64,000 nt of DNA from Candidatus Micrarchaeota archaeon (GTDB taxonomy: Archaea; Micrarchaeota; Micrarchaeia; Anstonellales; Bilamarchaeaceae): positions 1,582 through 65,581 of the forward strand of contig JBDRLQ010000023.1 of NCBI GenBank assembly GCA_043812915.1, written 5' to 3'. The translations under genes and the position numbers were made by a program. Below the pieces are notes generated by a model. That model ran no database searches. It was not told the origin of the DNA and was given only the letters and a program-made list of their open reading frames with translations. How positions within the stretch are numbered: position 1 is the first letter of the stretch; the number at the start of each line of letters is the position of its first letter. Of this stretch, positions 1 to 47,237 are shown piece by piece.

Positions 1-164
1 CGTATTGGAGCCGGTCATCATGTATTCCCGCTGCAGCCTATCGACCCACTCTGGCTGTGGGATTCCTTCAAAACTATACATATTTATCTGTTATAGCATA
101 TGCAAAATGATGTATTTAAACCTATCGGACAGGTGTTTTAAACTGTCCTATATAATGTATTTTC

Positions 165-959
165 ATGAGAGGACTAATTCGCACGAGAAGATTCGCCAGG
201 AGGGCCGCTGCCGCGGTGGCCATTACGGCAGCCCTGACCGGATTCTGCGGGTGCGGACTGTTCGCGAGTGAGCCGATGAGGCTGGATATCGCCAGCATGG
301 ACACCGTCAGAGCAAAGCAGCTCGGGTTCAAAAGGGGAAAGACCTCTGTAGAACAGGCAAAGGCGATGATGGAAAAGAGGAAGATGACCGGGATAGTGCT
401 GGAATCATACGCAGCTCCGGGAAAAAACCTCTTCGACATCCTTGCTGCGGATTACCAGGAGCAGATTCACGTTTTCAAGAACATGAGTTATGAGGGCAGC
501 ATAACCCTTCGCACAAAGGGAGTTCCCCCATACGGGTTTGGCATCAGGCTCGCAGAGACTAAAGGAAGGCTGGCGCTCTTAGTCCTTTATCGGGACCCGC
601 TGGACAACGCCATTCATGTGGATTTCGGGATGAAGGCTCAGCCGCCAAGAATCGATGTCTATCTGCGCACATCCAAGGGCTGGGCGCGCGAGGGGGGCTA
701 TTCCCTGGGCAAGATGGCAGAATCCCACGGTGGTCTCACCGACCCGCTTTTTGTCGGCCACAGCCTGGATGACGGAATCACGTTCATAGCAAGGAACCTG
801 AAAGGGACTGCCTGGAGCAACGGCTATTTCATTTCATTCAATGGGGAAGGGCTGCAGATAACCAAGGGCGATTCCCTTTCCACACTCACACATGGATGCT
901 CATGTGTAAGGAGGCACTTCGGCCTGACTGAAATTGGCGAAGAAGCAAGGACGGAATGA
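165..959 (+). CDS. hypothetical lipoprotein
   Basis: 264-aa ORF. N-terminus MRGLIRTRRFARRAAAAVAITAALTGFCGC has a basic n-region, a hydrophobic core and a lipobox-like Cys. No catalytic motif recognised. Confidence 0.45.
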   Translation: MRGLIRTRRFARRAAAAVAITAALTGFCGCGLFASEPMRLDIASMDTVRAKQLGFKRGKTSVEQAKAMMEKRKMTGIVLESYAAPGKNLFDILAADYQEQIHVFKNMSYEGSITLRTKGVPPYGFGIRLAETKGRLALLVLYRDPLDNAIHVDFGMKAQPPRIDVYLRTSKGWAREGGYSLGKMAESHGGLTDPLFVGHSLDDGITFIARNLKGTAWSNGYFISFNGEGLQITKGDSLSTLTHGCSCVRRHFGLTEIGEEARTE

Positions 960-960
960 G

Positions 961-1665
961 TCACCAAATGCCCGGAACAAGCCTGTATCTCACTTTCTTA
1001 ATATACTCCTTGTAGCCGGAGAGCTCCTTCTGCAGGGTGCCATCCTCCATGTAAGTCCTTCCCAAGATGAAAATTGCGGCTAACGCCCCGGGAATGAAAC
1101 CAATCGCGGAGCCGACGATAAAAGGCCCGGAGAAAGCCCAAAGGATTGTCCCGACATACCCCGGGTGCCTGACAATAGCATAAGGCCCGGTTGAAATCAC
1201 CGTGTGCTTTCTCTCCTTCTGTATCCGCACTGTCATCTCAAAGTGCGGATTCTCGGTCATGGACCAGATTAGGAAAACCATGGAGCCAAGGAAAAGCAGG
1301 ATTCCGGGAAAAACGAACTCAGGTCCAAGGTCGCTCCAGAAGTACCTGCCCACATCAAGGCCCATCACGATTGTCTGGATGTAGAATTGCATGATTCCAT
1401 AGCCGATGACAAAGAACCAGTCCCAGATTTTCGTCCCCTTGTTCTTGAGCCACTCCTGCCTCTCGTTTATGACGCTCGGGTTATAGATTGCAGGGATGAC
1501 TGCGGATGCCCACACATAAACAGCAGTTAGAATCATGAACAGCCAGCCGCGCGGAAGGTCCAGCGTGCCCGCTGCCAGAAAGAACATCGTCCCCATGAAG
1601 AAAGGGCTGATAAGCGACTTGATAAGGTATGTCCTTCCGGATTTGTTGAGCTTGCCCATAACCAA
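961..1665 (-). CDS. isoprenylcysteine carboxyl / phospholipid methyltransferase family membrane protein
   Basis: 234-aa multi-pass membrane ORF. C-terminal VISTGPYAIVRHPGYVGTILWAFSGPF resembles the ICMT/PEMT family signature (GPY..VRHP.Y.G). Confidence 0.6.
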   Translation of the reverse strand: MVMGKLNKSGRTYLIKSLISPFFMGTMFFLAAGTLDLPRGWLFMILTAVYVWASAVIPAIYNPSVINERQEWLKNKGTKIWDWFFVIGYGIMQFYIQTIVMGLDVGRYFWSDLGPEFVFPGILLFLGSMVFLIWSMTENPHFEMTVRIQKERKHTVISTGPYAIVRHPGYVGTILWAFSGPFIVGSAIGFIPGALAAIFILGRTYMEDGTLQKELSGYKEYIKKVRYRLVPGIW

Positions 1666-1751
1666 TGCTAAACTGTGAAACCATTAAAACATTCATTTTT
1701 TTGGCGTGCTCGCCCCAATCAGCTCCTTGTTTTTCATGGGGAGAAAAAAAG

Positions 1752-1825
1752 CGCCCCGACGGCGATTTGAACACCGAATTCAACCTCCGCAGGGTTGCGT
1801 CCTATCCAGGTTAGACTATCGGGGC
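1752..1825 (-). tRNA. tRNA-Arg (anticodon GCG)
   Basis: Reverse complement GCCCCGA TA GTCT AACCTGGATA GGAC G CAACC CTGCGGA GGTTG AATT CGGTG TTCAAAT CGCCG TCGGGGC G folds into a full cloverleaf. Anticodon loop is CT-GCG-GA and the T-loop is TTCAAAT. Confidence 0.9.
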
Positions 1826-2187
1826 AGTGGTTTAGATAGTTAGCGCATCCTCTTTTAATGATTACCTGATGCGGCCACTCTCCGTCGGTGTTTTTCATGG
1901 TTTTTAAACCTTTGCCAGGCATTTCTCTCGCCTGATCCATCCCGTATTTTTTTCTCAGGCGTAGAAAATCAGATATTTATTCTACATGAGCGTGATATCC
2001 ACGGCTCCGTTCGGTTGCCGGGATCCTGGCAACAAGGCGCATATGGTGCCGGAGGGGGACATCATGGCAAAGAAACCGAAACCGAAACCAAAGGACGATG
2101 AATAGCCTGCTCATAAAGGCTGCTGCATATTCACCCCTCATTTTTCCTTTTTTGGTCCCCAATACAAACCTCCCGATGGTGATTGAC

Positions 2188-2340
2188 ATGTTCGAAGGAA
2201 TTGAAAGCTGCTCCCTGTGCAGGAAGGAATTTACCCCCCAGAGCGCGAATTTCAGGGTCGGTCTCACCGGCCACACGTTCGCCTTCTGCGACAGATGCGC
2301 CCAAAGCCGGCGCCCGGAGATACTAAGGATGCTCATGTGA
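2188..2340 (+). CDS. small CxxC...CxxC zinc-ribbon-like protein (50 aa)
   Basis: MFEGIESCSLCRKEF...FAFCDRCAQSRRPEILRMLM has two CxxC knuckles. GGTGAT Shine-Dalgarno lies 4 nt upstream of the ATG at 2188. It is the inner part of the 2098..2340 track ORF. Confidence 0.35.
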   Translation: MFEGIESCSLCRKEFTPQSANFRVGLTGHTFAFCDRCAQSRRPEILRMLM

Positions 2341-2473
2341 CCGCTCTATTGTTTGCAGGAAATGGACAAATCGGGCAACTGCACAGGTATTTAAATGTAT
2401 CCCCATTATATATTTGTCTGCACTTTTCGAGTGCTATTTTTCGTCAGAACTAACGCTATTATTAGGTGGTTTG

Positions 2474-2620
2474 TTGAAACGATGCATTACATGCGGAAAG
2501 AATACCAAGGATTTCGCGGAATTCCCGTGCCCTAGCTGCGGGGAGAAGGTTTGCAGATGCTGCTACTGCAGGGAGAATCGGAACGCATATGAGTGTTCCT
2601 GCGGCTTCGTCGGCCCATAG
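2474..2620 (+). CDS. Zn-ribbon RNA-binding protein of the family usually encoded next to aEF-1beta (COG2888-like)
   Basis: KRCITCGKNTKDFAEFPCPSCGEKVCRCCYCRENRNAYECSCGFVGP has four Cys pairs and the terminal CGF.GP. AGGTGGT SD sits just upstream. Start is TTG at 2471 or 2474 (uncertain). Immediately precedes aEF-1beta. Confidence 0.6.
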   Translation: MKRCITCGKNTKDFAEFPCPSCGEKVCRCCYCRENRNAYECSCGFVGP

Positions 2621-2629
2621 GTGGATTCG

Positions 2630-2887
2630 ATGGCAGAACTAAACGTATCGGCAACGCTCAAGATTTTTGTGGACAATCCAGCGAAGATGGACGCCGTCAA
2701 GGCCGCCATTGAGCAGGTTGTCAAGGTTCAGAAATTCGATGAAATGGACGTCGGCTTCGGAATCAAGGCCCTGAAGGCATACGTCCTCATGGCTGATGAC
2801 GAAGGGGGAATGGACAAACTCGAATCCCAGATTAAGGAAATCGACGGTGTAAGCCAGATGGAAGTCGAGGAAGTCGGCAGGATATAG
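2630..2887 (+). CDS. ef1b: translation elongation factor aEF-1 beta
   Basis: 85-aa MAELNVSATLKIFVDNPAKMDAVKAAIE...GFGIKALKAYVLMADDEGGMDKLESQIKEIDGVSQMEVEEVGRI has typical aEF-1beta length and sequence. AGGTGGA SD lies 5 nt upstream of the ATG at 2630. Confidence 0.85.
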   Translation: MAELNVSATLKIFVDNPAKMDAVKAAIEQVVKVQKFDEMDVGFGIKALKAYVLMADDEGGMDKLESQIKEIDGVSQMEVEEVGRI

Positions 2888-2896
2888 GTGGATTTG

Positions 2897-3553
2897 ATGG
2901 CAAAGAAGAAGGACAAGAAGGAAAAGAAGAACGCTAAAAAAGATATTAAAAAGAAAGAGAAAGAAAGAGAAAAAGAGGAAAGAGAAAAAGAATCGAAGCC
3001 GGCAAAGAAGCCGGAGAAGAGGGTCCCTTTGAAAGGAGATGAGAGTGAGGGCTTCAGGGGAATCGTCCGTATCGCTGGAAAGGATATCAAGGGACACGTT
3101 CCACTCAAGCGCTCATTTCTCAGGGTGCGGGGAATCAGCCATGGATTGGCAAACTCCGCCGCGTCCGTAGTCCGCTCGGAGTTGGGAATCTCCCCGGACA
3201 TGAAGGTCGGTGAGCTCACAGACGAGCAGATTGAGAAAATCGATAAGATTCTCTTCAATCTGGAGAATCACAATATACCCGTGTTCATACTCAACCGTAG
3301 GTCTGATTTTGACAGCGGAAAGCCCCGCCACGTCATCATGAACGACCTGGTATTCACAGAGAGCCAGGACGTAGAGAGGATGAAGAAGGAGTACACCTGG
3401 AAAGGGTACAGGCACGCATACGGCCAGAAGGTCCGCGGTCAGAAGACGCGGAACACTGGCAGAAAGGGTATGGCAGTCGGTGTCCTCAGGAAGGCGATTA
3501 TTGCCCAGCAGAAAGGCGCCGCCAAGAAGGATGAAAAAGGCGGCAAGAAGTAG
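2897..3553 (+). CDS. rps13: 30S ribosomal protein uS13 with K/E-rich N-terminal extension
   Basis: Core is FRGIVRIAGKDIKGHVPLKRSFLRVRGIS...WKGYRHAYGQKVRGQKTRNTGRKG. AGGTGGA SD precedes the ATG at 2897. About 50 aa of K/E-rich sequence precede the conserved core. Confidence 0.9.
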   Translation: MAKKKDKKEKKNAKKDIKKKEKEREKEEREKESKPAKKPEKRVPLKGDESEGFRGIVRIAGKDIKGHVPLKRSFLRVRGISHGLANSAASVVRSELGISPDMKVGELTDEQIEKIDKILFNLENHNIPVFILNRRSDFDSGKPRHVIMNDLVFTESQDVERMKKEYTWKGYRHAYGQKVRGQKTRNTGRKGMAVGVLRKAIIAQQKGAAKKDEKGGKK

Positions 3554-3561
3554 GTGTTCAT

Positions 3562-4206
3562 ATGGGAGATCCAAGAAGACTGAGAAATAAGTTCGACCGC
3601 CCCAAGAAGCTTTGGGAAAAGGACAGAATCAAGCACGACAAGGGCCTTAAGGCCGAGTATGGCCTCAAGAGCATGAACGAGCTCTTCGCGGTCACTGAGC
3701 ACCTCAAGAAATACAGGCGTGAGGCCAGGCGTATGCTTGCTCTTACCCATGAAGCGAGGGGGAAGGACGAGCAGAAGATTCTTGCCAAACTCGCCAGGAT
3801 GGGTGTGATGAAGCCCGGCTCCAGGATAGAGGATATCCTTGCCCTTGATGTCCGCGTATTCCTTGAGAGGAGGCTGCAGACCATCGTCCATAGGAAAGGC
3901 CTTGCAAGGACCACAAGGCAGGCGAGGCAGCTTATCACGCACGGCTTTATTTCAATCGACGGCAGGAAGAACAACACCCCCGGATATATGGTGACTGCTG
4001 ATGAGGATGCATCAATCATGTATTCGAAGCCTATCGACATCAGCGTGCCCACTGAAGAGGATGTTGCGGCTGAATCCGCTCCCAAGGCCGAAGGCGCACC
4101 TGCTGCGGCAAAGCCCGCGGAGGCGCCGGAGGAAGACGCCCCTGAAGAGGCTGCTGCAAAGCCTGCAGAGGCGGCAATGCCAGAAGAGGCGCCCAAGGGG
4201 GCTTAA
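3562..4206 (+). CDS. rps4: 30S ribosomal protein uS4 with A/E/P-rich C-terminal tail
   Basis: [41 protein letters not shown]...[33 protein letters not shown] is upstream. Confidence 0.9.
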
Positions 4207-5465: not shown

Positions 5466-5551
5466 GCAGGGGTGACAGAGCCTGGTCAAATGTGCTAGGT
5501 TGAGGGCCTAGTCGGTTAGTCCGTGCAAGTGTTCGAATCACTTCCCCTGCA
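5466..5551 (+). tRNA. tRNA-Leu (anticodon GAG), long variable arm
   Basis: GCAGGGG...CTAGG TT-GAG-GG CCTAG TCGGTTAGTCCGTGC AAGTG TTCGAAT CACTT CCCCTGC A. Acceptor, anticodon and T arms pair perfectly, and the class II variable arm is present. Confidence 0.9.
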
Positions 5552-5595
5552 CTTTATTTTTATCCTGGAAAAGACTTAGCGTTCGCCATATCTCC

Positions 5596-7113: not shown

Positions 7114-8172
7114 TCATTCGGCATTTTCTTCCTGGGCAGCCCTTCCGTCCACTCCGAACCTTCCATACCTGCCGTAATTTTCGGTCTCGTCCTGCTTTTC
7201 CAGCTCCCTTTTCACGCAGTAGCTCCTCTCGAATCCTTCAGGAAGGCGTGTTAGCCCTAGCCGCTTGAAGCTGCCGTTTTCCACATTGTGCTTCAAATGC
7301 CTGCACACCCATTCCATCCTGTGCATGCCCGGAACATCCCTCCTTTCCCAGGCCCTACGCTCCTCTTCATTGCAGTTCCCTCTCCAGTCCCAGATGAGTT
7401 CGGAATAATATACATCCAGGGATTTGAGCTGCTCATGGCTCATATTGGGCCTAAAATCACAGAGCTTCATGCTGGCGTCCATCCTGTTCTGGAAGCCGAG
7501 CAGGGTATCGAAAAGTGACGCGATGTCCTCCGCGTGCCCGATGTCCATCCTGCCCCCTGGCCTGTTGACCATGCCGACAAGGGTGACTGCCGTGTGCGGC
7601 ATGGTGTGAAGAAGCCTGTATGTGGCCGGGAACCTCTTTGGCCGCAAAGATATGGCGACCCTCCTGCCTGCAAGCAGCTTCTCATTTCGGTCTGCGAAAT
7701 TCCTGCTGGTCTCCAGGACTTCCGCTACGTTCGGGTACATAAGCGACCCGTTCGAATACTTGGCTTTCGTGAAATGCTCGATATACCCCTCCGGCGTTTC
7801 CCTGTCCGAGCCCTTCGGGCGAATCTTGTACAGCGCAATCGAGCCCTCAATCATCTCCACCAGCATCTTGTCGCTGCTAAGCCCCCTTCCTGAATCGAAT
7901 GGGGGGCCGAAGTAAGCCTCATTGAGTCGGTCGAAACACAAGTCCCAGGTTTCCTCCGGGAATGAGTTGTTCTTCTGGAATGCCTTGGAAACATCCAGGG
8001 GCTCTGTAATACGCTCCTGCGGCTCCTGCCCGTTCCCGCAGCAGAGCAGTCCTGTAATCGTCACCGGGGCGAGCATCCTGCCCGTCCAGGCGGCAATCCT
8101 TCTGGGCAATGGCACTTTGGGGGGATGGGCCTCACAGCTTTTCAGTTTCCGTGGAATACACTCGGATTTCAC
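7114..8172 (-). CDS. hypothetical protein (start uncertain: GTG 8172, leaderless, or ATG 8076)
   Basis: The long track ORF 7114..8427 overlaps the upstream gene 8232..8921. A TATAAAAC box lies about 28 nt upstream of the in-frame GTG at 8172. No family recognised. Confidence 0.45.
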   Translation of the reverse strand: MKSECIPRKLKSCEAHPPKVPLPRRIAAWTGRMLAPVTITGLLCCGNGQEPQERITEPLDVSKAFQKNNSFPEETWDLCFDRLNEAYFGPPFDSGRGLSSDKMLVEMIEGSIALYKIRPKGSDRETPEGYIEHFTKAKYSNGSLMYPNVAEVLETSRNFADRNEKLLAGRRVAISLRPKRFPATYRLLHTMPHTAVTLVGMVNRPGGRMDIGHAEDIASLFDTLLGFQNRMDASMKLCDFRPNMSHEQLKSLDVYYSELIWDWRGNCNEEERRAWERRDVPGMHRMEWVCRHLKHNVENGSFKRLGLTRLPEGFERSYCVKRELEKQDETENYGRYGRFGVDGRAAQEENAE

Positions 8173-8231
8173 GATATTCTGTAGCAAAATACGTTTTATA
8201 ATGGTATCAGAAAAAGGAGAAAAAAAGAAAA

Positions 8232-8921
8232 TCAGAGGTGGAGAAGGTATCTCTTCTCCACATTGACATACTTTCCTATATGGAATGCCTTGTCCACCGT
8301 GTTCAGCACATTGGTGAATGCCACATAGCTTCCTGCTATTCCAAGCGCGAACAGTCCGCGCTCGAAGGCTACGACCGGAATAAGCGCAAGCCAGGCCTCC
8401 GCGGGCATGGGTATGGTGTACAGCCAAACCACGCTGCCGATGCAGTGGGCGGTGAATGTCGCGCCAAGGCTTCTTAGCACCAGGTTGTCAGGAAGGAACT
8501 TCGCCGCAACTGGGATAATCCACCATAGCGCGTATATCCAAGCGGCCTGCCCGGTCGGGTGGAGCCAGAACGCGAGCATGGCAAGAACCGGCACCGCCAC
8601 CCCAAGGATGTCCTTTATTCCCCTCAGCCAGTTGCGCCCGAAATAAAGGGCTGCAAAGACCATTGGCAGGAGCCGAAGAAGGTTGATGGCTGTGATTTCC
8701 TTGCCGACAAGCACATAATCCACTATCTGGGCGCCGAGAACTGCGACGCCGCCGAAAATCCCGAGGAACCCTCCGGCAATCGGTCCGAAGAACTGGTACA
8801 ATGTGAAGAATTGGTTCTCCTGGCCTATTATCGAAGAGAAGTTAATCTGCATCCCAACAAGCGCAAGCGCCGTGAATAGCGCCAGGAACAGAAGTCCTTT
8901 TCTGGAAATGATATTATGCAT
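8232..8921 (-). CDS. hypothetical multi-pass membrane protein
   Basis: 229-aa hydrophobic ORF (..FGPIAGGFLGIFGGVAVLGAQIVDY..). No family recognised with confidence. Confidence 0.55.
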   Translation of the reverse strand: MHNIISRKGLLFLALFTALALVGMQINFSSIIGQENQFFTLYQFFGPIAGGFLGIFGGVAVLGAQIVDYVLVGKEITAINLLRLLPMVFAALYFGRNWLRGIKDILGVAVPVLAMLAFWLHPTGQAAWIYALWWIIPVAAKFLPDNLVLRSLGATFTAHCIGSVVWLYTIPMPAEAWLALIPVVAFERGLFALGIAGSYVAFTNVLNTVDKAFHIGKYVNVEKRYLLHL

Positions 8922-9070
8922 TTTTACACCTCTCGAATGAATAATCAGTACTTAGCCATACGTAAATATCTTTATTAAGGTTTTTGGCGGGCGCGGTTTC
9001 CAGGGGCGTTTCCTATATTCTTATAGGAATAATATTTTCAGAAGTAAATAAATATGGAATTTTTTCATTC

Positions 9071-10180
9071 ATGTCCATGACAAGGGGAAGTTTGCGGATA
9101 TACGGTTTTGTAAGGAAGGGGATTGAGCAGGCAAAAGCCGCCGCGTCAGCCGGAAGGCAGAGGATGCGGGCCGCTGCCATCGCTTTCAGGAAACCCTCTC
9201 TTTTAGAGCAGCAAACCGAAACGAAGAAAGCGACGATAGTGCTCGCGACGGACTGGGGGGCTGACGGCGCAGAGACCAATATCGAGAGCCAGATCGAGGC
9301 CTTGTCATCCGGCCTTGGCATGGATGTCTCGATAAAACGGATACCCGGCTTCGCCCCGCTCTCCAGCCCGCTTCCATGCGCGGTCGAGCTTGACCGGATT
9401 ATCACCACGCACAGGATCACATCCGAGCTCCTTGTCCGGACACTTAGAAATGAGGGGCTCCCGGATGGGGAAATCAGGAAAAGGCTGAGCCTGCTGACGC
9501 TTGTTAATGTGTTTGACCGGAAGGTCGGAAGCGGGAGGGTAGCCGGGATAGTGAAAGGTTACATGCCTCTTCTTGATGGGGAATTCACAATCCAGGTCAA
9601 TCTTATCGGCCCGCTCAACAACGGCATCATACGCGCCCTCTCGAGGAGGCTCCGCGACTGCCAGTGCCATGAGCTTGCAAATCCTGAGTTCCAGGTCGAT
9701 GAGCTTGGCTGCAAGACCTGGGACGGAAGGGCCAAGTTCGGCCCGGCAGCAGTTTTCTCATCGTACGGAATAAGTCCCTCTGAGTTCGGGCCCGGGATTG
9801 ATCTTGGCGCGTTCCCTGAAATCTCCTTCCGCGCTTCCATGGATGGCACGATTGCCGAAGTGCCCGTTGTGACTGTGGATGAAATCGGGAATCTGGTGAC
9901 TGGCATAGACAATGGCAGCCTTGGTGGGCTTGGCGAAATCCTCAGCCTGTCCGGCCCGCATGGGTCGCTCCTAGCAAGGAAGGGGGAGAAGTTCGATGAC
10001 GTTCCGGAGGGCGAAGCGGTATTCTACGCGGGCTCCAAGGGGCTAATAGAGGTCGCTGTGAATATGGGCAGCGCGGCTGAAAGCCTCGGAATCGGCCCTG
10101 GGAGCCTTGAGCTTGATGGTGGTGAATCAGCCCTTATCCTCAGGGCTAAGAATATGGGGAGCATCACGGTCGCTGCCTGA
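9071..10180 (+). CDS. SAM hydroxide adenosyltransferase (DUF62 / chlorinase-fluorinase fold)-like protein, unusually long
   Basis: N-terminal ATIVLATDWGADG and C-terminal FYAGSKGLIEVAVNMGSAAESLGIGPGS resemble DUF62 hallmarks (..TDFG.. and ..G.LEIAVN.GSAA..LG...G). Start ATG 9071 was chosen downstream of an AT-rich TATA-like tract. Confidence 0.5.
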   Translation: MSMTRGSLRIYGFVRKGIEQAKAAASAGRQRMRAAAIAFRKPSLLEQQTETKKATIVLATDWGADGAETNIESQIEALSSGLGMDVSIKRIPGFAPLSSPLPCAVELDRIITTHRITSELLVRTLRNEGLPDGEIRKRLSLLTLVNVFDRKVGSGRVAGIVKGYMPLLDGEFTIQVNLIGPLNNGIIRALSRRLRDCQCHELANPEFQVDELGCKTWDGRAKFGPAAVFSSYGISPSEFGPGIDLGAFPEISFRASMDGTIAEVPVVTVDEIGNLVTGIDNGSLGGLGEILSLSGPHGSLLARKGEKFDDVPEGEAVFYAGSKGLIEVAVNMGSAAESLGIGPGSLELDGGESALILRAKNMGSITVAA

Positions 10181-10253
10181 GCGGGAATAACATTTAAAAG
10201 AGGCGACTGGCTAGTAGCGCCTGATGGAGGCCAGAAAAAGAGCTGGAAAGAAA

Positions 10254-11510
10254 ATGCCTGAACTGAGGACCGAGCTTCTGGCTGGCCTCACAACCTTCTT
10301 CACAGTATCGTACATCCTCCTTATCAACCCTAGAATCCTTGGAGTGGCCGGGCTGCCCGAGGGGGAGGTCTTTGTGGCAACAGCCCTTAGCGCTGCTATC
10401 GCCTCACTCATAATGGGCCTTTACGCGAACCGGCCCTTTGCGCTCGCAGCAGGAATGGGCCTGAATGCCTATTTCGCCTATGCGGTAATTCTGGGCATGG
10501 GAATCAGCTGGCAGGCCGCCCTCGCGGCGGTATCCATCTCCGGGCTGCTGATATTCCTCCTGACATTGACTCGGATTGACCTTGGGCGCGGGATTCCGCC
10601 TAGCTTCAAGTTCGCCCTTATAGCAGGACTAGGGCTATTCCTCGTGTTCATCGGGCTGCAGAATGCGCATCTTGTTGTTCCGGACCCGGCGACCATAATC
10701 TCCCTTGGGGATTTCACAAGCCCGAACACGCTGATTGCGATTCTCGGCTTCTTCGTGACCGGGTTCCTGATAGCCCGAGGCGTAAAGGCGCACCTTCTCC
10801 TTGGCATATTCATCACCGCCCTTGTGGGCATGCTCCTGGGGTTAACCCCCTGGCCAGCAGAGATATTCAGCATGCCGCCGGCAGGATTTCCCCTCGCTAT
10901 GCAGCTGGACTTCTCGGACATATTCTCCATCGGGATGCTAAGCGTGATCTGGGGCTTCTTCATCATCACCCTCTTTGACGTAATCGGAACGCTTGATGCG
11001 CTGTCCATCAAGGCGGGCTTCGTGGATAAGAAAGGCCGCATACTGGGTATGAAAAAGGCCCTTAGGGCAAACTCCTTCGGGATAATTGTAGGCTCCGCCC
11101 TGGGGGTGCCGACCATAGTCGCCTTCCTTGAGAGCGCGACGGGCATCGAGGCCGGGGGGCGCACAGGCATCGTCGCCTTCGTTGTCTCAGGCATGTTCCT
11201 GCTCTCACTCTTCTTCCTGCCCCTAATCCAGTCGATACCCATAGAGGCTGCGGCTCCGGCGATAGTAATCACTGGGGTGCTCATGCTCTCTGCGATAGAG
11301 CGGATAAACTACAAGGACATCACGGATTCCCTTCCCGCCCTGCTCACCCTGGTGATAATCCCATTCACCTTCTCGATAGCCCATGGAATCGCAATAGGCT
11401 CGGTCTTCTATGTCTTCCTCAAATTGGTTTCAGGGAAAGCCCGGGACGTCAGCGCGGCCATGTACCTTATCGCCCTGCTTTCTATCATAGATCTGGCCGG
11501 ATTTTTCTAA
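10254..11510 (+). CDS. NCS2/AzgA-family purine (adenine/guanine/hypoxanthine) permease
   Basis: MPELRTELLAGLTTFFTVSYILLINPRILG... is the typical AzgA N-terminus, followed by about 12 TM segments. Confidence 0.8.
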   Translation: MPELRTELLAGLTTFFTVSYILLINPRILGVAGLPEGEVFVATALSAAIASLIMGLYANRPFALAAGMGLNAYFAYAVILGMGISWQAALAAVSISGLLIFLLTLTRIDLGRGIPPSFKFALIAGLGLFLVFIGLQNAHLVVPDPATIISLGDFTSPNTLIAILGFFVTGFLIARGVKAHLLLGIFITALVGMLLGLTPWPAEIFSMPPAGFPLAMQLDFSDIFSIGMLSVIWGFFIITLFDVIGTLDALSIKAGFVDKKGRILGMKKALRANSFGIIVGSALGVPTIVAFLESATGIEAGGRTGIVAFVVSGMFLLSLFFLPLIQSIPIEAAAPAIVITGVLMLSAIERINYKDITDSLPALLTLVIIPFTFSIAHGIAIGSVFYVFLKLVSGKARDVSAAMYLIALLSIIDLAGFF

Positions 11511-27411: not shown

Positions 27412-27771
27412 CTATTTCCTGAGGGATTCTGCCATCGGCTTCCTGAGCCCGCCCTCAATCTCAGTTTTCCGCTTCAAGATCTCCGCCCTCATCTCTGCAG
27501 CGCACTTGTCGCACATGGAATTCGTCACTCCGTCCGGGTCGGTCGGGAGGCCCTCTTTCATTATGGTCTCGATTGGGACAAGGGCTCCAGTGTCTCTGAA
27601 CCTGATCCTAGGTGTTGGAGACACTAAGCGGTTTTGCGAGAATTTCCCCTCGTCCTTGAATTCTCTGGAATCGCACCAGTTGCAGACTACATATCTGCTG
27701 GGCAGCGATTTAGCTGGCGCCTCCATCCGCTCTCCCAAAGTCCTCATCTTCAAAGGTTTTGCTGCGTTCAT
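27412..27771 (-). CDS. small Cys-knuckle zinc-ribbon-like protein P3 (CNWC...CDKC)
   Basis: YVVCNWCDSREF...IETIMKEGLPTDPDGVTNSMCDKCAAEM has the same knuckle architecture as P1/P2. GTGAT SD lies 5 nt upstream of the ATG at 27771. Sits directly upstream of methyltransferase paralog 2. Confidence 0.5.
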   Translation of the reverse strand: MNAAKPLKMRTLGERMEAPAKSLPSRYVVCNWCDSREFKDEGKFSQNRLVSPTPRIRFRDTGALVPIETIMKEGLPTDPDGVTNSMCDKCAAEMRAEILKRKTEIEGGLRKPMAESLRK

Positions 27772-27933
27772 TTGTTATCACGTTTCTATACATATCGCAA
27801 CATAAGTTATATTTAAATGTTGCGGTTTCTAGCCAATCATGGGATTCTAGAACATTTATAGCATGGGTAACCATCTTATAACAACTATATGTTTTTAAAG
27901 GTTTCCAAGCCTATTCAAATACGAGGGAATTAA

Positions 27934-28848
27934 TTGGTAGTTGTTGGTGAAAAAGGGAATGTCTCCAAAGCGAGAATATCGGTGCTACGCCGGGCAAGGC
28001 CCATCCCAGAGCACTCGCTTCTACTTACCAAATTCAAAGACCACTTCAACCCAATCGTTTCTTTCCTGAATGAGCCCAATCCGTTTGACCGGCTGGACAA
28101 GGAGAAAAGGCATCTCTGGTTCACGCATGAATATTTCATAAGCCGTAAGTTCGCCCTGAATGTGATGGAACTTTTCCCAGGACTTAAATCCGGGGATTTC
28201 CTTTTGCTAAGGGAGTTCGGCCTCTCACCTGCGGTACTCAAAAAAGACCCTAGCCCGGCAAATGTCCAGAATGTCCTGGCAGGGCACATGAGCCATGAAA
28301 GGTCTCCGAGATGGGGCCTGATGGGCATTCTAATACTATTGGATCAGATGGGCAAGATGCCTGAAGCTGCGCCAGAGGAGCACCACCGGGCGGTGCTGGA
28401 GTTCTTCAGGTACATGCGAAAGAGGGTTGAGCCATATGTGAGGGCCTGCCAGACTCTACAGCAGACTGGCAACGCGAGGTATTTTGATTCTAGCAATGAG
28501 TATCTTTTCGATCCGCATACTGGAGTTCCCCTGCGGTATCTGGTGCACATGATTGACGGTGTTGTGCTCAACTTTGCCTATGACCCTGATTTCGATCCCG
28601 AGACATTCGAGCTTATGAGCCTCGAGTGGGCAAGGATACCCAATTCCATGGGATTCAATAACGCCCCCACGCTCTTTGCGGAAGCGGATTCGGGATCAGC
28701 CTTCGGAAGGAATGTCGCAAGAAGGCTTAGGTCCCTCAACAAGGCCGGCACCATGGACACGGTCGGAAGGGAGTGGATGAAAGCCTTTGACATTGCCGCT
28801 CCGAAGGATGCTGACCCGAATGGCGGGTTCCCATCTACCCAGAAATAG
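27934..28848 (+). CDS. hypothetical protein
   Basis: 304-aa ORF. TTG start with a GAGGGA SD 5 nt upstream. No family recognised. Confidence 0.5.
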   Translation: MVVVGEKGNVSKARISVLRRARPIPEHSLLLTKFKDHFNPIVSFLNEPNPFDRLDKEKRHLWFTHEYFISRKFALNVMELFPGLKSGDFLLLREFGLSPAVLKKDPSPANVQNVLAGHMSHERSPRWGLMGILILLDQMGKMPEAAPEEHHRAVLEFFRYMRKRVEPYVRACQTLQQTGNARYFDSSNEYLFDPHTGVPLRYLVHMIDGVVLNFAYDPDFDPETFELMSLEWARIPNSMGFNNAPTLFAEADSGSAFGRNVARRLRSLNKAGTMDTVGREWMKAFDIAAPKDADPNGGFPSTQK

Positions 28849-28928
28849 CTGTTTTTCCCCCAATTGCCCGGATGTCCTTCTTTGTGTTTGTTGGCGGGTT
28901 AAAAATGTTTCTATTAAAATAATAATTT

Positions 28929-30056
28929 ATGTCTATTAGTGCAAGCTTGGCAAAAGAGTGCGTTCCCGGCCCCAATGGGCTCGGAGCTGCCGCCAAAAGG
29001 CCCGTAGCCCGCTGCAAAGGCGGAGAGGCGCTCCGATGCCGCAAGGGCCGCAAAAATACCAAACCCCCCCTCCTGCCGATTCTTGATTCTAACCATCCCC
29101 CGGCGAATCTTCGGGACCCTGGACTGCTCAAAGAAATTCTGGCAACCGCCGATGCTGATTTACACTCTCTTCCCCTTTCCAAAATCAGGTCGGTGCATAT
29201 GAAGCATCCATTGTTCACTGGCACCCTGCTAACCCTCATGCACAAGGTCTTCGGGATATCTCATACTGCGGAGAGCCTCCTCAGCCATAAGGAAGACGCA
29301 TACATGTTCCTGTGGTATGTCTATGAAGATGAGCGAATCGCATTCGATGGCAGCCTTACCATGGGCGAGATGGAAAACGGTTTCGTTGGCAAAGCCTCCA
29401 CCTCCAGGCGGCCCGACAGGGACTATGAGCTGCTGAGCCTGGCGATGAATGTCCACAGGGCCCTGGAGACCCTAACTTCCAGGGAGCAGATGGTGCTTGA
29501 AGGCAGGTTTGGCGGTGGCGCTACGCTGCAAGAGCTGGCAGATGAATTTCACATAACCCCCGAGAGAGTGCGGCAGATTGAGTCAAAGGCCTTGAGGAAG
29601 ATGAGGATGCGGGAGCGGGCCGCCCTCATGGAGCCATTCACCGAGGACTTCCAGGAAGCCCCGTTCTACCAGGGCCATGCATATTCATATACACCGGTTC
29701 TTATCAGGCGCTACATCCCTGAAATTGTGGCGGTCTCGGAATTTGCACTAAACGGCCCACCCGAAGGAGAAGCGCTCCTTTCGCTTTCGCTGGAGATATC
29801 CGCGCTCTGGCGCAAGCTCCATGAAGAGATGCCTGAAATCAACCTCGGGTTCCTTGAAAACTGCGGCTTTATCGGAATTTCAGAGGAAATGGGAAAAATC
29901 CGGAAACCTGGGCTGAGTGACGTGAAGGGATATCTCCTCCGCTCCATCATGAGGCGCTATCCTGGATACGCAATTGCCCGGCTGGTTGTGAAGCATGAAG
30001 TTGGCCTTAGGGATGAGCATTCCCAGACTGACCTTGCCAGCTGGGAAGAGTATTAA
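28929..30056 (+). CDS. protein containing a sigma-70 region 4 (4.2 HTH)-like domain; N-terminal boundary uncertain
   Basis: LTSREQMVLEGRFGGGATLQELADEFHITPERVRQIESKALRKMR closely matches the bacterial sigma-70 region 4 consensus (..RER.VL.LRFG....TLEE.G..F.VTRERIRQIE.KAL.KLR). No region 2 motif was seen. The first ~90 codons are GC-rich and open on both strands; ATG 29200 (MKHPLF) is an alternative start. Confidence 0.55.
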   Translation: MSISASLAKECVPGPNGLGAAAKRPVARCKGGEALRCRKGRKNTKPPLLPILDSNHPPANLRDPGLLKEILATADADLHSLPLSKIRSVHMKHPLFTGTLLTLMHKVFGISHTAESLLSHKEDAYMFLWYVYEDERIAFDGSLTMGEMENGFVGKASTSRRPDRDYELLSLAMNVHRALETLTSREQMVLEGRFGGGATLQELADEFHITPERVRQIESKALRKMRMRERAALMEPFTEDFQEAPFYQGHAYSYTPVLIRRYIPEIVAVSEFALNGPPEGEALLSLSLEISALWRKLHEEMPEINLGFLENCGFIGISEEMGKIRKPGLSDVKGYLLRSIMRRYPGYAIARLVVKHEVGLRDEHSQTDLASWEEY

Positions 30057-44064: not shown

Positions 44065-46096
44065 GCTAAAAACTGGAAGTAATTCTTCAAGACGAAAGTC
44101 TTGATGAGTGAGAACCATCTTAGCAGAGGTTAATTTGCTGATACAAACCACATAGTGGATGGCTGGGCTGAGGCCCGCACGGCCACGCGGCAAGCGGCGA
44201 AACGCCCTGGGTAGACGCACGCAGTCTTTGATCCAGGGATCTGGCGGTGCACAGTAATGTGCAGTAACCCACCGAAATGAAGCATCTTAGTAGGTGGAGG
44301 AAGAGAAACCAATTGGGATCCGGATAGTAACAGCGAGTGAAATTCGGAGAGATCAAGCTGAATTCCATTGCGGTAACGCAGTGGTAGATGTGGCGGGGAG
44401 TATCCTTTCTGTGAGCAGAAGTCGGCTGGAATGCCGTACCATAGCGAGTAATAGTCTCGTATGCGAAGCAGTGGAGGAGTGATCCAATGAAGAGTAGCGT
44501 ACCCCGGTTAGGGTGCGTGAATATGGGTGCATCAACATCCAAATCTAAACATGAGGCCTTAGACCGATAGCGAAATAGTAGCGCGAGCGAATGCTGAAAA
44601 GCACCGGGGGACCGGTGTGAAAAGAACCTGAAATTATGTGGTGACATTATGGTATGGCACGAAAGGGATTAGGACAATGGAAGCGACTGTTGGTAACGGC
44701 AGGAGCGACATTGTTTAACCGGTGTCATATCTTCCTTCTCGAAGCAAGAACCAAGGAGTTAATGGATGTGGCAAGACGAAAGTCGAAGCGAAAGCAAGCG
44801 CCCGCAGCAGGCTTGTCCTGTCAGGGGCATCGTGGTAACTCGCGATCAGTCACATTCATCAGACCCGAAGCCATAGTGATCTACGCCTGAACAGGGCGAA
44901 GTCAACCTGACGGTTGATGGAGGCCCGCAACTAGTGGTGGTATATTCCCCTTAGGTGATTTGGGTGTAGGGGTGATAGTCCTGTCGAACATGGCGATAGC
45001 GGGTTCCCTTCGAAATGTGTCTTAGCACAGCGTCTCCTGAGAATTATATAGCGGTAGAGCACCGATTAGGCGGAGCGGCCCCGAGAGGGGTCACCATCTT
45101 CTCAAACTCCGAATGCTGTATATTCTAAGACGGAGGCAGTGGGGATTGCGGAGTAAGTCCGTAGTCCCTTACGGGAAAGACCGTACGCAAGGCTAAGGAC
45201 CCTAAATGCTGGTTAAGTGTTAATCATCAAGGAGTCTCTACTCAAAGACAACCGGGAGGTAGGCTCAGAAGCAGCCACCCTCTAAACAACGCGTAATAGC
45301 GGACCGGTCGAGAGTGCAGATTCTTAAAATTCACGGGGCTAAACCAGCTTCCGATACCTTGCCAGAGCCAAAAGCTCATGTGTAGGGGGGCGAACGGGTT
45401 GCGCCGAAGCGCGGTGGTAACATCGTGTGGAGCGGCCTGTTATGAACATCTTGGTGTTAGTAGCAGCATATCCGGATGAGAATTCCGGACACCTCATAGA
45501 GCAAGGATTCCTCAGCCACGTTCTTCAGCTGAGGGTTAGGCGATCCTAAGGGCCATGGTAAAACCTGAAGCCCGAAATCAGGGAATCCGGTTAATATTCC
45601 GGACCTATATGGGTAGGCGCGGTAACGCAAGCCTACTTCTTACGCCTTTGGATATGTGAAGCGGCTTCGGCCGTCTGATAGAAGTAACTCCGTGGAGTCT
45701 CATTGTGAGGAGAAGCGGATGAAATCTTTAGGGGAAACTTCATTGAGTCCGGGGGTCCATGAAAAGTGAAGTAGGAACGATCCCATATAATCGTACCCAG
45801 AACCAGTACAGGTGCTCTAGCTGAAAAGGCTAAGGTGTGACAGGATAACCCAAGCAAGGGAACTCGGCAAGTTAGCCCTGTACCTTTGGTAGAAGGGGTG
45901 CCTTCGCATGCGTAATGTGGAGGTCGCAGTGACAAGTGGAGTGCGACTGTTTACCAAAAACACAGGTCATCGCAGAGCGGAAACGCTGAGTATGATGGCT
46001 GACGTCTGCTCACTGCCAGTACCTGAACACCGGTTTCAACCGGGAGAAGGGCTGGTAAAGAGCGGGGGTAACTCTGACCCTCTTAAGGTAGCGTAA

Positions 46097-46224
46097 ACAA
46101 GGCCAAGAATCATGTTTACATGAGGATTGCCTTGAGTTTGCGGTAATTGTTGCCAAAAGCAAGTCGTTAAAGTAGTGAGGAAATCCTCGATCTATATCCT
46201 TAACCGGATATGGCCTTGACGTAA
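46097..46224 (+). other. archaeal bulge-helix-bulge intron (128 nt, no ORF) in 23S domain IV
   Basis: Removing it restores the conserved GGTAGCGTAATACCTCGCCGCTTAATTGGCGGCTTGCATGAATG. Outer helix is AGGTA/TACCT, central 4-bp helix GCGT/ACGT, bulges AAA and AA(T), inner helix CAAGGCC/GGCCTTG. The boundary is ambiguous by up to 5 nt because CGTAA is repeated. Confidence 0.8.
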
Positions 46225-46750
46225 TACCTCGCCGCTTAATTGGCGGCTTGCATGAATGACGTAACGTCGCTCCAACTGTCCCTGCTTGGGACCTGGTGAA
46301 CTCACTGCCCGGTGAAGATGCCGGGGACTTCCAGAGGGAAACGAAGACTCCATGGAGCTTTACTATAGCCTGATGTTGTGATATTGAGTTGGCTACACAG
46401 TGTAAGTGGGAGCCGTTAAGCTGTGCCTTCCGGGGTACAGATAGGCAAAAGTGTAACACCACTTAGTTAGTTCGATATTGCTTACCCGCAAGGGGACAGC
46501 GTCAGGTGGATAGTTTGGCTGGGGCGGTACGCCCTCGAAAAGGAAACAAGGGCGCCCAATGTTCTGCTCATGCCGGTCAGAAATCGGCAGTAGAGGGTTA
46601 AAGACAAATGCAGGGCTGACTGTATTTCTCATAGTATGGAATGCAGAGACGAAAGTCGGGCTTAACGAACCTTGAAATCCCTTTGATGAGGATTCAAGCT
46701 GTCAGACAAGCTACCCTGGAGGTAACAGGCTCGTCGCGGGCGAGAGTACA

Positions 46751-46800
46751 CTGCGATGTAGTCAAAACGTTTCTTTTGAACTAGGACTACTTCGCGTGCG
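46751..46800 (+). other. 50-nt insertion in the 23S domain V H89 apical region: mini-intron or expansion hairpin
   Basis: GAGAGTACA[50 nt]TATCGAC interrupts the conserved GAGAGT.CATATCGAC string. The insert forms a ~10-bp stem (GCGA-GTAGTC / GACTAC-TCGC with one U-U mismatch). No canonical BHB could be drawn. Confidence 0.5.
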
Positions 46801-47237
46801 TATCGACCCCGCGGTTTGGTACATCGCTGTCGGCTTGGGATATCCTGGCCGTGTAGGAGCGGCCAAGGGTTGGGTTGTTCATCCATCAAAATCCCACATG
46901 AGCTGGGTTCAGTACGTCGCGAGACAGTACGGTAGTATCTCCTGGAAGTGTTGTCTCTTGAAAGGAAGGATCCTTGAGTACGAGAGGAACGGGGATCCGG
47001 CGCCTCTAGTCTACCGGTTGTGAATTGCATTGCCGGGCAGCCACGCGCCAACCGATAAGACCTGAAAGCATCTAAGGTCGAAGCGGCTCTTAAAACGAGG
47101 AGACATACCGCAGATAACAGATCTGTTTGATAGGACCATGGTGTAAGACGCTAGGTTCGCCGAGCGTTTCAGCCAGTGGTTACTAACGGTTTACTTCAAA
47201 GAATTCAACCTTTGCGGATGGTCCTTCTGGTTTTTGT

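What the first reader, a model, noticed from the sequence alone, without database searches (positions are those of the whole stretch)
28929..30056. Near-canonical bacterial sigma-70 region 4 HTH in an archaeal gene context
Residues ~TSREQMVLEGRFGGGATLQELADEFHITPERVRQIESKALRKMR match the sigma-70 region 4.2 consensus almost position for position. No region 2 (-10 recognition / core-binding) motif is visible, and the ~170-aa C-terminal half is unrelated to sigma factors. Archaea use TBP/TFB and have no known use for sigma factors. The flanking genes have archaeal-type TATA/leaderless or SD signals, so contig chimerism seems unlikely. The protein may be a repurposed HTH regulator acquired from bacteria.
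Basis: partly seen in the sequence, partly recalled or inferred. Interest (0 to 1): 0.6.

Follow-up and report, generated by a model that had tools for sequence, protein, structure and literature searches.

The report
Sigma region-4 DNA-binding protein, Micrarchaeota
A tiny symbiotic archaeon (Micrarchaeota) carries a native gene whose protein contains only the tail end of a bacterial sigma-70 factor, the part that reads the -35 promoter element. This piece is joined to two domains with no known relatives, so the protein is most likely an ordinary DNA-binding regulator from a rare, undescribed family and not a working sigma factor.

Summary
ORF 28929-30056 (+, 375 aa) has a strong Sigma70_r4 match (PF04545, 61.8 bits, aa 178-226). 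Profile comparison extends the homology to primary sigma factors (RpoD) over aa 151-241. No region 2 or 3 was detected in the protein, and no region 2 in the genome.

The contig is archaeal and not chimeric:
- It carries an archaeal 23S rRNA.
- An independent metagenome contig repeats the gene order.
- The gene has a conserved TATA box about 26 nt before its ATG.
- The genome has TBP and TFB, TATA-rich upstreams and no -35 enrichment.

The protein belongs to a rare family of about two dozen proteins among the 15 billion that the searched collection represents. Every member whose source genome I could identify is from Micrarchaeota. The family is defined by an unnamed ~90-aa domain followed by the RpoD-type region 4. 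This pair occurs alone, with ankyrin or HEAT repeats, or at the end of RadD/XPB-like SF2 helicases.

The most likely role is a sequence-specific DNA-binding regulator, analogous to archaeal Tfx/EnfR but not a member of that family.

Sigma-70 genes in DPANN archaea are already published (Castelle et al. 2021), and this scan has met them before on other DNA. The new elements are the N-domain family and the helicase fusions.

The parts
28899..28906 (+). TATA-like box TTAAAAAT, centred about 26 nt upstream of the ATG. This implies a leaderless or near-leaderless mRNA.
   Evidence: Sequence read. The box and the ATG are conserved in the orthologous contig L051. TATA-like hexamers are 7-9 times enriched upstream of genes in this genome.
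28929..30056 (+). Coding sequence of the 375-aa protein. The public gene call (P0001, 285 aa) starts at internal Met91 and cuts off part of the N-domain.
   Evidence: ORF list. P0001 covers 76% of the ORF. Conservation with P0002 and the family starts at about aa 58. The ATG is conserved in L051.
28929..29099 (+). aa 1-57: basic, Pro/Gly-rich, poorly conserved tail, predicted disordered.
   Evidence: pLDDT is below 50 for aa 1-45. Identity to P0002 is low here.
29100..29372 (+). aa 58-148: unnamed conserved N-domain. Motifs: LLxEIL, HPxFxGTxxTLMHKxFGI, EDxxxFLWYxxED.
   Evidence: Found by the profile search of 1.84 billion representatives. Alignments. An HMM of the domain hits 21 family proteins at 75-120 bits. 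No Pfam family in 25 members. No similarity to RpoD or to Micrarchaeota sigma-likes. pLDDT about 90, with helices and one beta-hairpin.
29379..29651 (+). aa 151-241: segment derived from a primary-type sigma factor. It runs from the end of region 3.2 (the LGDFIED-equivalent GFVGKAS) through regions 4.1 and 4.2 to the C-terminal tail.
   Evidence: hhalign of the family profile against RpoD: probability 99.3%, 91 columns, 41% identity, RpoD columns 458-554 of 563. Profile search against PDB sequences: SigA/RpoD, E down to 8e-22. Structural matches span residues 157-239.
29460..29606 (+). aa 178-226: Pfam Sigma70_r4 helix-turn-helix. The recognition helix reads TPERVRQIESKALRK.
   Evidence: PF04545 at 61.8 bits. 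In the alignment with RpoD, the E, R, R and Q of TRERIRQIE are kept and the first R is replaced by P.
29661..30023 (+). aa 245-365: C-terminal domain. It opens with the motif F-x-x-(D/G)-H-x-(H/Y)-x-Y. The model shows two long paired strands enclosing four helices.
   Evidence: Model pLDDT about 80. The motif is visible in six family members. The domain as a whole is shared only with P0002 (jackhmmer). No Pfam, PDB or Atlas relative.
27934..28848 (+). Upstream co-directional gene (304 aa, near-orphan). It is the conserved neighbour of the sigma-4 gene and has its own TATA box and a GAGG-type ribosome-binding site.
   Evidence: Same order in L051. Homologs exist only in close kin. In the same-genus genome G001 it is present without the sigma-4 gene downstream, so the pairing is not obligatory.

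Best explanation
The gene encodes a stand-alone, sequence-specific DNA-binding protein, most likely a transcription regulator of a few loci. Its DNA-reading head is a sigma-70 region 4 domain of the primary (RpoD) type.

Shown:
- The domain is present and is predicted to fold like solved region 4.
- It keeps four of the five residues of the recognition helix that, from my memory of the solved sigma-A/-35 complex, read the -35 element.
- The parts of sigma that bind core polymerase and read the -10 element are absent.
- The cell has the archaeal TBP/TFB machinery and TATA-type promoters.
- The gene has its own archaeal promoter, and both gene and promoter are conserved with a 40%-identical ortholog in the same gene order.

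Inferred:
- The HTH docks in the major groove of a short site resembling TTGAC.
- The unnamed N-domain and the C-terminal domain provide oligomerisation, partner binding or signal input.
- The protein modulates archaeal transcription by occupying promoter DNA, as the archaeal Tfx/EnfR regulators do.
- The whole protein corresponds to the module that relatives carry at the C-terminal end of RadD/XPB-like helicases. There the same module probably serves as the DNA-targeting part.

For: Recognition helix: TPERVRQIE against TRERIRQIE.

No region 2 or 3.

Archaeal machinery: TFB and TBP are present. TATA-like hexamers are 7-9 times enriched upstream of genes, while TTGACA is at 0.75 times expectation.

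Native gene: promoter and ATG are conserved and synteny is conserved in L051.

Family: the N-domain plus r4 family and its architectures are shown.

Against: - No target site was found.
- The one conserved palindrome nearby (27797-27823) is also conserved in G001, which lacks the gene at this locus.
- The N- and C-domains have no assigned fold, so an enzymatic or polymerase-binding role cannot be excluded.
- In my recollection of sigma-70, region 4 also binds the beta-flap of RNA polymerase. A protein-protein role for this domain is therefore possible.
Confidence: 0.6

Rival explanations
1. Targeting or regulatory subunit of a DNA translocase or repair machine. Relatives carry the same N-domain + r4 (+ tail) module fused to the C-terminus of RadD/XPB-like SF2 helicases. 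The free protein could therefore work in trans with such an enzyme, guiding it to particular DNA sites.
For: Fusions P0089, P0090, P0095, P0100, P0110, P0112, P0232 and P0233. The helicase part is closest to RadD and XPB/Rad25. In G363 the fusion gene lies 4.4 kb from uvrA-uvrC.
Against: The own genome has no ortholog of that helicase, only generic Helicase_C matches of 18-34 bits (genome 89.6% complete). The neighbours of the gene are not repair genes.
Confidence: 0.15
2. Polymerase-associated factor. The sigma-4 module contacts the archaeal RNA polymerase, or TFB, and works as an alternative initiation or recruitment factor. This would be a reduced relative of the full sigma-70-like genes scattered in Micrarchaeota.
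For: Sigma-70-family genes with region 2 occur in 44 of 401 genomes of the phylum. Several also have region 3 and region 4. The segment kept here includes region 4.1, which in bacteria binds the beta-flap (my recollection).
Against: Region 2, the main core-binding part, is missing. There is no -35-like enrichment upstream of genes. No tool here can test binding to archaeal polymerase.
Confidence: 0.1
3. Decaying remnant of a once complete sigma-like or helicase-fusion gene, with no present function.
For: Patchy distribution: the N-domain was found in only 3 genomes at E below 1e-4, plus one weak hit, among 401 of the phylum. It was not found at the same locus in the same-genus genome G001.
Against: The 375-codon frame is intact. 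Conservation with a 40%-identical ortholog is domain-wise, strong in the N-domain, HTH and C-domain and weak in the tail and linkers. The promoter is conserved. The predicted domains are confident.
Confidence: 0.05
4. Assembly or binning artefact: a bacterial fragment joined to an archaeal contig.
For: The best region-4 matches outside the family are bacterial RpoD.
Against: Archaeal 23S rRNA lies 14 kb away on the same contig. GC is even. The same four-gene order is found on an independent metagenome contig. The promoter is of archaeal type. The genome's contamination estimate is 0.24%. A family member lies on a 132-kb contig of a Micrarchaeota MAG.
Confidence: 0.01

Closest known systems
Region 4 of bacterial primary sigma factors (RpoD/SigA; Pfam PF04545; e.g. 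PDB 1rio, 1ku7, 7vpd chain F)
   Same: Sequence and predicted fold over aa 151-241. This includes the end of region 3.2, regions 4.1 and 4.2, and a degraded form of the C-terminal tail. Other family members keep the KLRHPSRS tail of RpoD. Most of the -35-reading residues are kept.
   Different: It has no regions 1.1, 1.2, 2 or 3. The domain sits in the middle of the protein, between two unrelated domains. The host has an archaeal polymerase with TBP and TFB.
Tfx family of archaeal regulators (EnfR/TON_1525, PDB 8hno; MTH0916) (PMC10570040)
   Different: There is no TFX_C domain. The HTH is central, not N-terminal. The region-4 match is far closer to real RpoD and includes region 4.1 and the tail. 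The flanking domains are different.
Sigma-70-family genes of DPANN archaea (Castelle et al. 2021, fam00359, PMC8204110; from my memory also Rinke et al. 2013)
   Same: A bacterial-type sigma sequence in native DPANN genes of unknown role. In this phylum, 44 of 401 genomes have region-2-bearing genes.
   Different: Those are sigma factors with regions 2 to 4. This protein has only the last quarter of a sigma factor. Its N-domain shows no similarity to them.
MzaA of the MZA anti-phage system (NF041931, PDLC02203)
   Same: It is the best NCBIfam and PADLOC hit. MzaA is a large protein that ends in a sigma-70 region 4.
   Different: Only the terminal ~80 positions match: 66.9 bits against a cut-off of 800. 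No other Mza component was found among the six neighbouring gene products scanned against PADLOC.
LuxR/GerE 'solo' regulators
   Same: Same HTH superfamily, and the same logic of an HTH joined to a variable sensor or partner domain.
   Different: GerE scores 16.5 bits, below its cut-off of 23.5. The sequence is clearly of the sigma type, not the LuxR type.

Membership tests
Sigma-70 family sigma factor | Region 4 (-35 recognition HTH, PF04545) | tested here: met
Sigma-70 family sigma factor | Region 2 (core binding and -10 recognition, PF04542) | tested here: not met
   No Pfam hit. N-domain profile against RpoD gives probability 0.1%. The same kind of hhalign comparison recovers regions 2-4 in degenerate Micrarchaeota sigma-likes at 99.9%. 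No PF04542 match anywhere in the genome. TIGR02937 passes its cut-off (50.7 against 42.9), but only through model positions 96-162, which is region 4. Automatic annotation may therefore over-call the protein as a sigma factor.
Sigma-70 family sigma factor | A bacterial-type core RNA polymerase to bind, and -35/-10 promoters | tested here: not met
   The genome has TFB and TBP and archaeal rRNA. Upstream regions are enriched in TATA-like hexamers and not in TTGACA. The polymerase subunits themselves were not examined.
Tfx family (archaeal) | N-terminal r4-type HTH followed by the acidic TFX_C alpha+beta domain | tested here: not met
   No TFX_C hit in Pfam at E up to 0.1. The HTH starts at aa 178. 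Only the HTH superposes on 8hno.
LuxR/GerE family | GerE-type HTH above the Pfam threshold | tested here: not met
   PF00196 scores 16.5 bits against a cut-off of 23.5.
MzaA (MZA defence system) | Full-length match and neighbouring Mza genes | tested here: not met
   66.9 bits against a cut-off of 800, with only positions 635-716 of 726 matched. The six neighbouring gene products scanned give no PADLOC hit.
Unnamed 'N-domain + sigma region 4' family (this report) | About 90-aa N-domain with the motifs LLxEIL, HPxFxG-TLxHKxFG and FLWYxxED, directly followed by RpoD-type region 4 | tested here: met
   Profile search, alignments and the N-domain HMM (own protein 106.8 bits).

The most novel reading that the evidence does not exclude
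The N-domain + sigma-4 module is a Micrarchaeota invention that couples a promoter-reading (or polymerase-touching) head to RadD/XPB-like DNA translocases, and the stand-alone proteins are free versions of it. This would be an archaeal, sigma-derived counterpart of transcription-coupled repair or polymerase-recycling factors such as Mfd or RapA. It would also give the puzzling sigma sequences of DPANN archaea a concrete job.
Probability: 0.1. Interest if true: 0.8.

Novelty: new variant of a known kind. Interest (0 to 1): 0.42.

Why it matters
Sigma-like genes in DPANN archaea are a published but unexplained oddity. This case shows that one piece of a primary sigma factor, the -35-reading region 4 with its linker, has been cut loose and recombined in Micrarchaeota with an unnamed domain, with repeat domains and with repair-type helicases.

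This gives a small, tractable protein (375 aa, or the roughly 180-aa minimal members) on which to test what a sigma region 4 does in a cell with TBP/TFB-type transcription. It also defines a domain that is missing from Pfam.

There is a practical point as well. The NCBIfam sigma-70 superfamily model passes its threshold on region 4 alone, so pipelines may label such proteins as sigma factors. The public gene call also starts 90 codons too late.

Tried and rejected
- **Degenerate region 2 in the N-terminus.** I suspected that 'FLWYVYED' corresponds to region 2.1/2.2 of the Micrarchaeota sigma-likes. hhalign against two groups of those proteins and against 81 RpoD sequences gave probabilities below 1%, with a working positive control. 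Rejected.
- **Donor of region 4.** A FastTree of 125 region-4 segments over 109 columns was unresolved. Family and Micrarchaeota sequences intermix and supports are mostly below 0.85. No claim is made.
- **Provirus or defence island.** PHROGs and PADLOC scans of the neighbours gave no phage or defence-system hits. No integrase or tRNA lies next to the gene.
- **Split helicase partner in the own genome.** Not found.
- **Operator search.** The palindrome at 27797-27823 is unique in the genome. It is kept in G001, which lacks the gene, so it is not assigned to this protein.
- **Related loci.** Pattern scans of genome contigs and viral contigs with the family alignment found nothing. One alignment was too diverse to scan with.

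Full report
**1. What is there**

Pfam places Sigma70_r4 (PF04545) at aa 178-226 with E 4.2e-17 and 61.8 bits against a cut-off of 24.1. The match covers 49 of the 50 model positions. NCBIfam models of RpoD, RpoS, RpoH, FliA and MzaA all match, but only through their last 60-85 positions. No significant region 2 or region 3 hit appears. The Sigma70_r2 model finds nothing anywhere in the 1.30-Mb genome (89.6% complete, 0.24% contamination), although it fires in all ten bacterial control genomes and in none of the four archaeal ones.

**2. The context is archaeal and the contig is sound**

- A complete archaeal LSU rRNA lies at 44129-47205 of the same window.
- GC content is even at 0.50-0.55 up to 62 kb; only the last 2-kb bin reaches 0.58.
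- The genome encodes TFB and TBP.
- In 1,078 upstream regions of crude gene calls, the most enriched hexamers are TATA-like (TTTAAA, TTTTAA and TATAAA, 7-9 times expectation). TTGACA is at 0.75 times expectation.
- The genome search places the genome in the same family as G363. G363's contig is the public record 'uncultured Candidatus Micrarchaeota archaeon MFD03804.bin.2.25'. This agrees with earlier notes of this scan.
- An independent metagenome contig (L051, Ga0180433_10045149) carries the 40%-identical ortholog P0002 behind the same neighbours in the same order. These are a methyltransferase (-), a small zinc-ribbon protein (-), a ~300-aa near-orphan (+) and the sigma-4 gene (+).
- A mis-join is therefore excluded as far as sequence can show. 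The read-level check could not be run.

**3. Gene start and promoter**

The public gene call (P0001, 285 aa) begins at Met91. Conservation with P0002 and with the wider family starts at about aa 58. The ATG at 28929 and a TTAAAAA(T/C) box centred about 26 nt upstream are conserved between the two contigs. The gene thus has its own archaeal-type promoter and probably a leaderless mRNA. The true product is 375 aa.

**4. Anatomy**

With two sequences AlphaFold failed (pLDDT 40). With a 25-sequence family alignment it gave pLDDT 74. The parts are as follows.

- **aa 1-57:** a basic, disordered tail.
- **aa 58-148:** a compact domain (pLDDT about 90) of helices and one beta-hairpin.
- **aa 151-241:** the sigma-derived segment (pLDDT up to 98).
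- **aa 245-365:** a domain (pLDDT about 80) in which two long strands pair around four helices.

The recognition helix reads TPERVRQIE where RpoD has TRERIRQIE. From my memory of the sigma-A/-35 DNA complex (Campbell et al. 2002), the kept E, R, R and Q are base- or backbone-contacting residues, and the first R is lost.

**5. The N-domain is not a hidden region 2**

I suspected a degenerate region 2. hhalign of the N-domain profile against RpoD, and against two groups of Micrarchaeota sigma-like proteins, gave probabilities below 1%. By contrast, the Micrarchaeota proteins in which Pfam sees only region 4 match RpoD regions 2-4 at 99.9% over 227 columns. None of the 25 family members has a Pfam hit in this domain. 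It has no PDB sequence relative.

**6. The family**

An exhaustive profile search of 1.84 billion representative proteins and a second profile search found about two dozen proteins that share the N-domain. An HMM of the N-domain scores 21 of them at 75-120 bits. In most of them the N-domain is followed directly by region 4. The observed architectures are:

- the bare module (181-208 aa: P0094, P0140, P0087);
- the module plus a C-terminal extension (P0002, P0084, P0085, P0108, P0118 and this protein);
- the module plus ankyrin repeats (P0093) or HEAT repeats (P0090);
- the module at about aa 450-660 of 790-950-aa proteins that begin with a ResIII + Helicase_C SF2 helicase (P0089, P0090, P0095, P0110, P0233; also P0232, P0112 and P0100);
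- the N-domain without region 4 (P0100, and two short G363 proteins).

The helicase part is nearest to RadD and XPB/Rad25, though far below the equivalog thresholds. Two further helicase proteins (P0251, P0252) carry a very RpoD-like region 4 (95-100 bits) but no N-domain. Some members keep the RpoD tail KLRHPSRS..L. A short motif, F-x-x-(D/G)-H-x-(H/Y)-x-Y, follows region 4 in six members. The C-terminal domain as a whole is shared only with P0002.

In 401 genomes of the phylum the N-domain was found in G000, G363 (four copies) and G248, with one weak hit in G175. The same-genus genome G001 has the zinc-ribbon gene and the 300-aa gene at this locus, but a different gene follows them. The family is therefore rare and patchy. 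Every member whose genome I could identify is Micrarchaeota. The contigs of the other members could not be fetched.

**7. Relation to other sigma-like genes**

Sigma-70 genes in DPANN archaea are published. Castelle et al. 2021 (PMC8204110) report family fam00359, 'particularly prevalent in Woesearchaeota'. They rule out mis-binning, find no anti-sigma factors and leave the mechanism unclear. rpoS-like genes have also been reported in DPANN viruses (PMC12647753). From memory, Rinke et al. 2013 had already noted sigma factors in archaeal single-cell genomes; I could not find that text in the library. This scan has met such genes repeatedly on other DNA.

In my own searches, PF04545 occurs in 40 of 201 genomes of the phylum and PF04542 in 44 of 401. 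These include proteins with regions 2, 3 and 4 and tandem arrays. The present protein differs from those. It keeps only the last quarter of a sigma factor, and the genome has no region-2 gene. A tree of region-4 segments is unresolved, so neither a bacterial donor nor descent from the Micrarchaeota sigma-likes can be claimed.

**8. How it most likely works**

The best-supported reading (0.6) is a free-standing DNA-binding regulator. The sigma-4 HTH would read a short site, and the flanking domains would supply oligomerisation or partner contacts, as in the archaeal Tfx/EnfR regulators (PMC10570040). The protein is not a member of that family, because it has no TFX_C domain.

- Shown: the domain identity, the absence of core-binding parts, the archaeal promoter type of the genome, and conservation of the gene and its promoter.
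- Inferred: DNA binding itself, the kind of site, and the regulatory outcome.

The rivals are:

- a trans-acting targeting subunit for a RadD/XPB-like translocase (0.15; the fusions argue for it, the lack of such a helicase in this genome against it);
- a polymerase-associated factor (0.1);
- a decaying relic (0.05);
- an assembly artefact (0.01).

No provirus or defence-system signature surrounds the gene.

**9. Verdict**

What is new is a rare, unnamed domain family that recombines an RpoD-type region 4 with repair-type helicases and repeat domains in Micrarchaeota. I rate it a new variant of a known kind, with interest 0.42.

Noticed in passing
window 27797-27823: Perfect palindrome GCAACAT-N13-ATGTTGC with a TATA-like centre (TTATATTTAAA). 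It lies in the divergent intergenic region between the zinc-ribbon gene (27412-27771, -) and the 304-aa gene (27934-28848, +). It is nearly identical in three genomes (G000, L051, G001) and occurs only once in the 1.3-Mb genome. It is a candidate operator or bidirectional promoter of unknown regulator.
   Followed up: partly
window 27934-28848 (+); L054 1459-2319 (-); L051 2223-3119 (+); L055 1065-1988 (+): The 304-aa upstream neighbour is a near-orphan with no Pfam, NCBIfam, PHROG or PADLOC hit. Its only homologs are in very close kin. In G392 a 26%-identical homolog sits between ORFs that look like pieces of a group II intron reverse transcriptase/maturase (read by eye, not tested).
   Followed up: partly
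G097:C13:21.9-28.3 kb; also L013, L019, L024, L032, L011 and L017: Other Micrarchaeota genomes carry complete sigma-70-like genes with regions 2, 3 and 4. One genome has a tandem array of five PF04545-bearing ORFs within 6.4 kb. Region 2 (PF04542) was found in 44 of 401 genomes of the phylum and in none of the four control archaea.
   Followed up: partly
P0251 (782 aa), P0252 (795 aa, on a 513-kb contig): These are RadD-like SF2 helicases that end in a very RpoD-like region 4 (95-100 bits against an RpoD region-4 profile) but lack the N-domain. They represent a second kind of helicase-sigma-4 fusion. Their organisms are unknown.
   Followed up: no
L042 (CAWBTT010000005.1) 82-3581 and 8001-10370; G363:C5 14.3-30.6 kb: In the Micrarchaeota MAG MFD03804.bin.2.25 a helicase-N-domain-r4 fusion lies 4.4 kb from bacterial-type uvrA-uvrC. 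Two short N-domain-only genes lie on the same contig about 15 kb from the fusion gene. A second helicase fusion is on another contig (C4).
   Followed up: partly
G000:C16:81832-82380 (TFB gene): A weak Sigma70_r4 hit (20.4 bits) falls inside one of the two TFIIB cyclin repeats of TFB. This fits the proposed distant relationship between the HTHs of sigma and TFB (PMC4581349; title and abstract only).
   Followed up: no
window 44129-47205; window 5466-5552: The 23S rRNA gene stands alone; no 16S or 5S rRNA was found in the 64-kb window, so the rRNA genes appear unlinked. ARAGORN calls a tRNA-Leu(GAG) at 5466-5552 that the Rfam tRNA model did not report at its gathering score.
   Followed up: no
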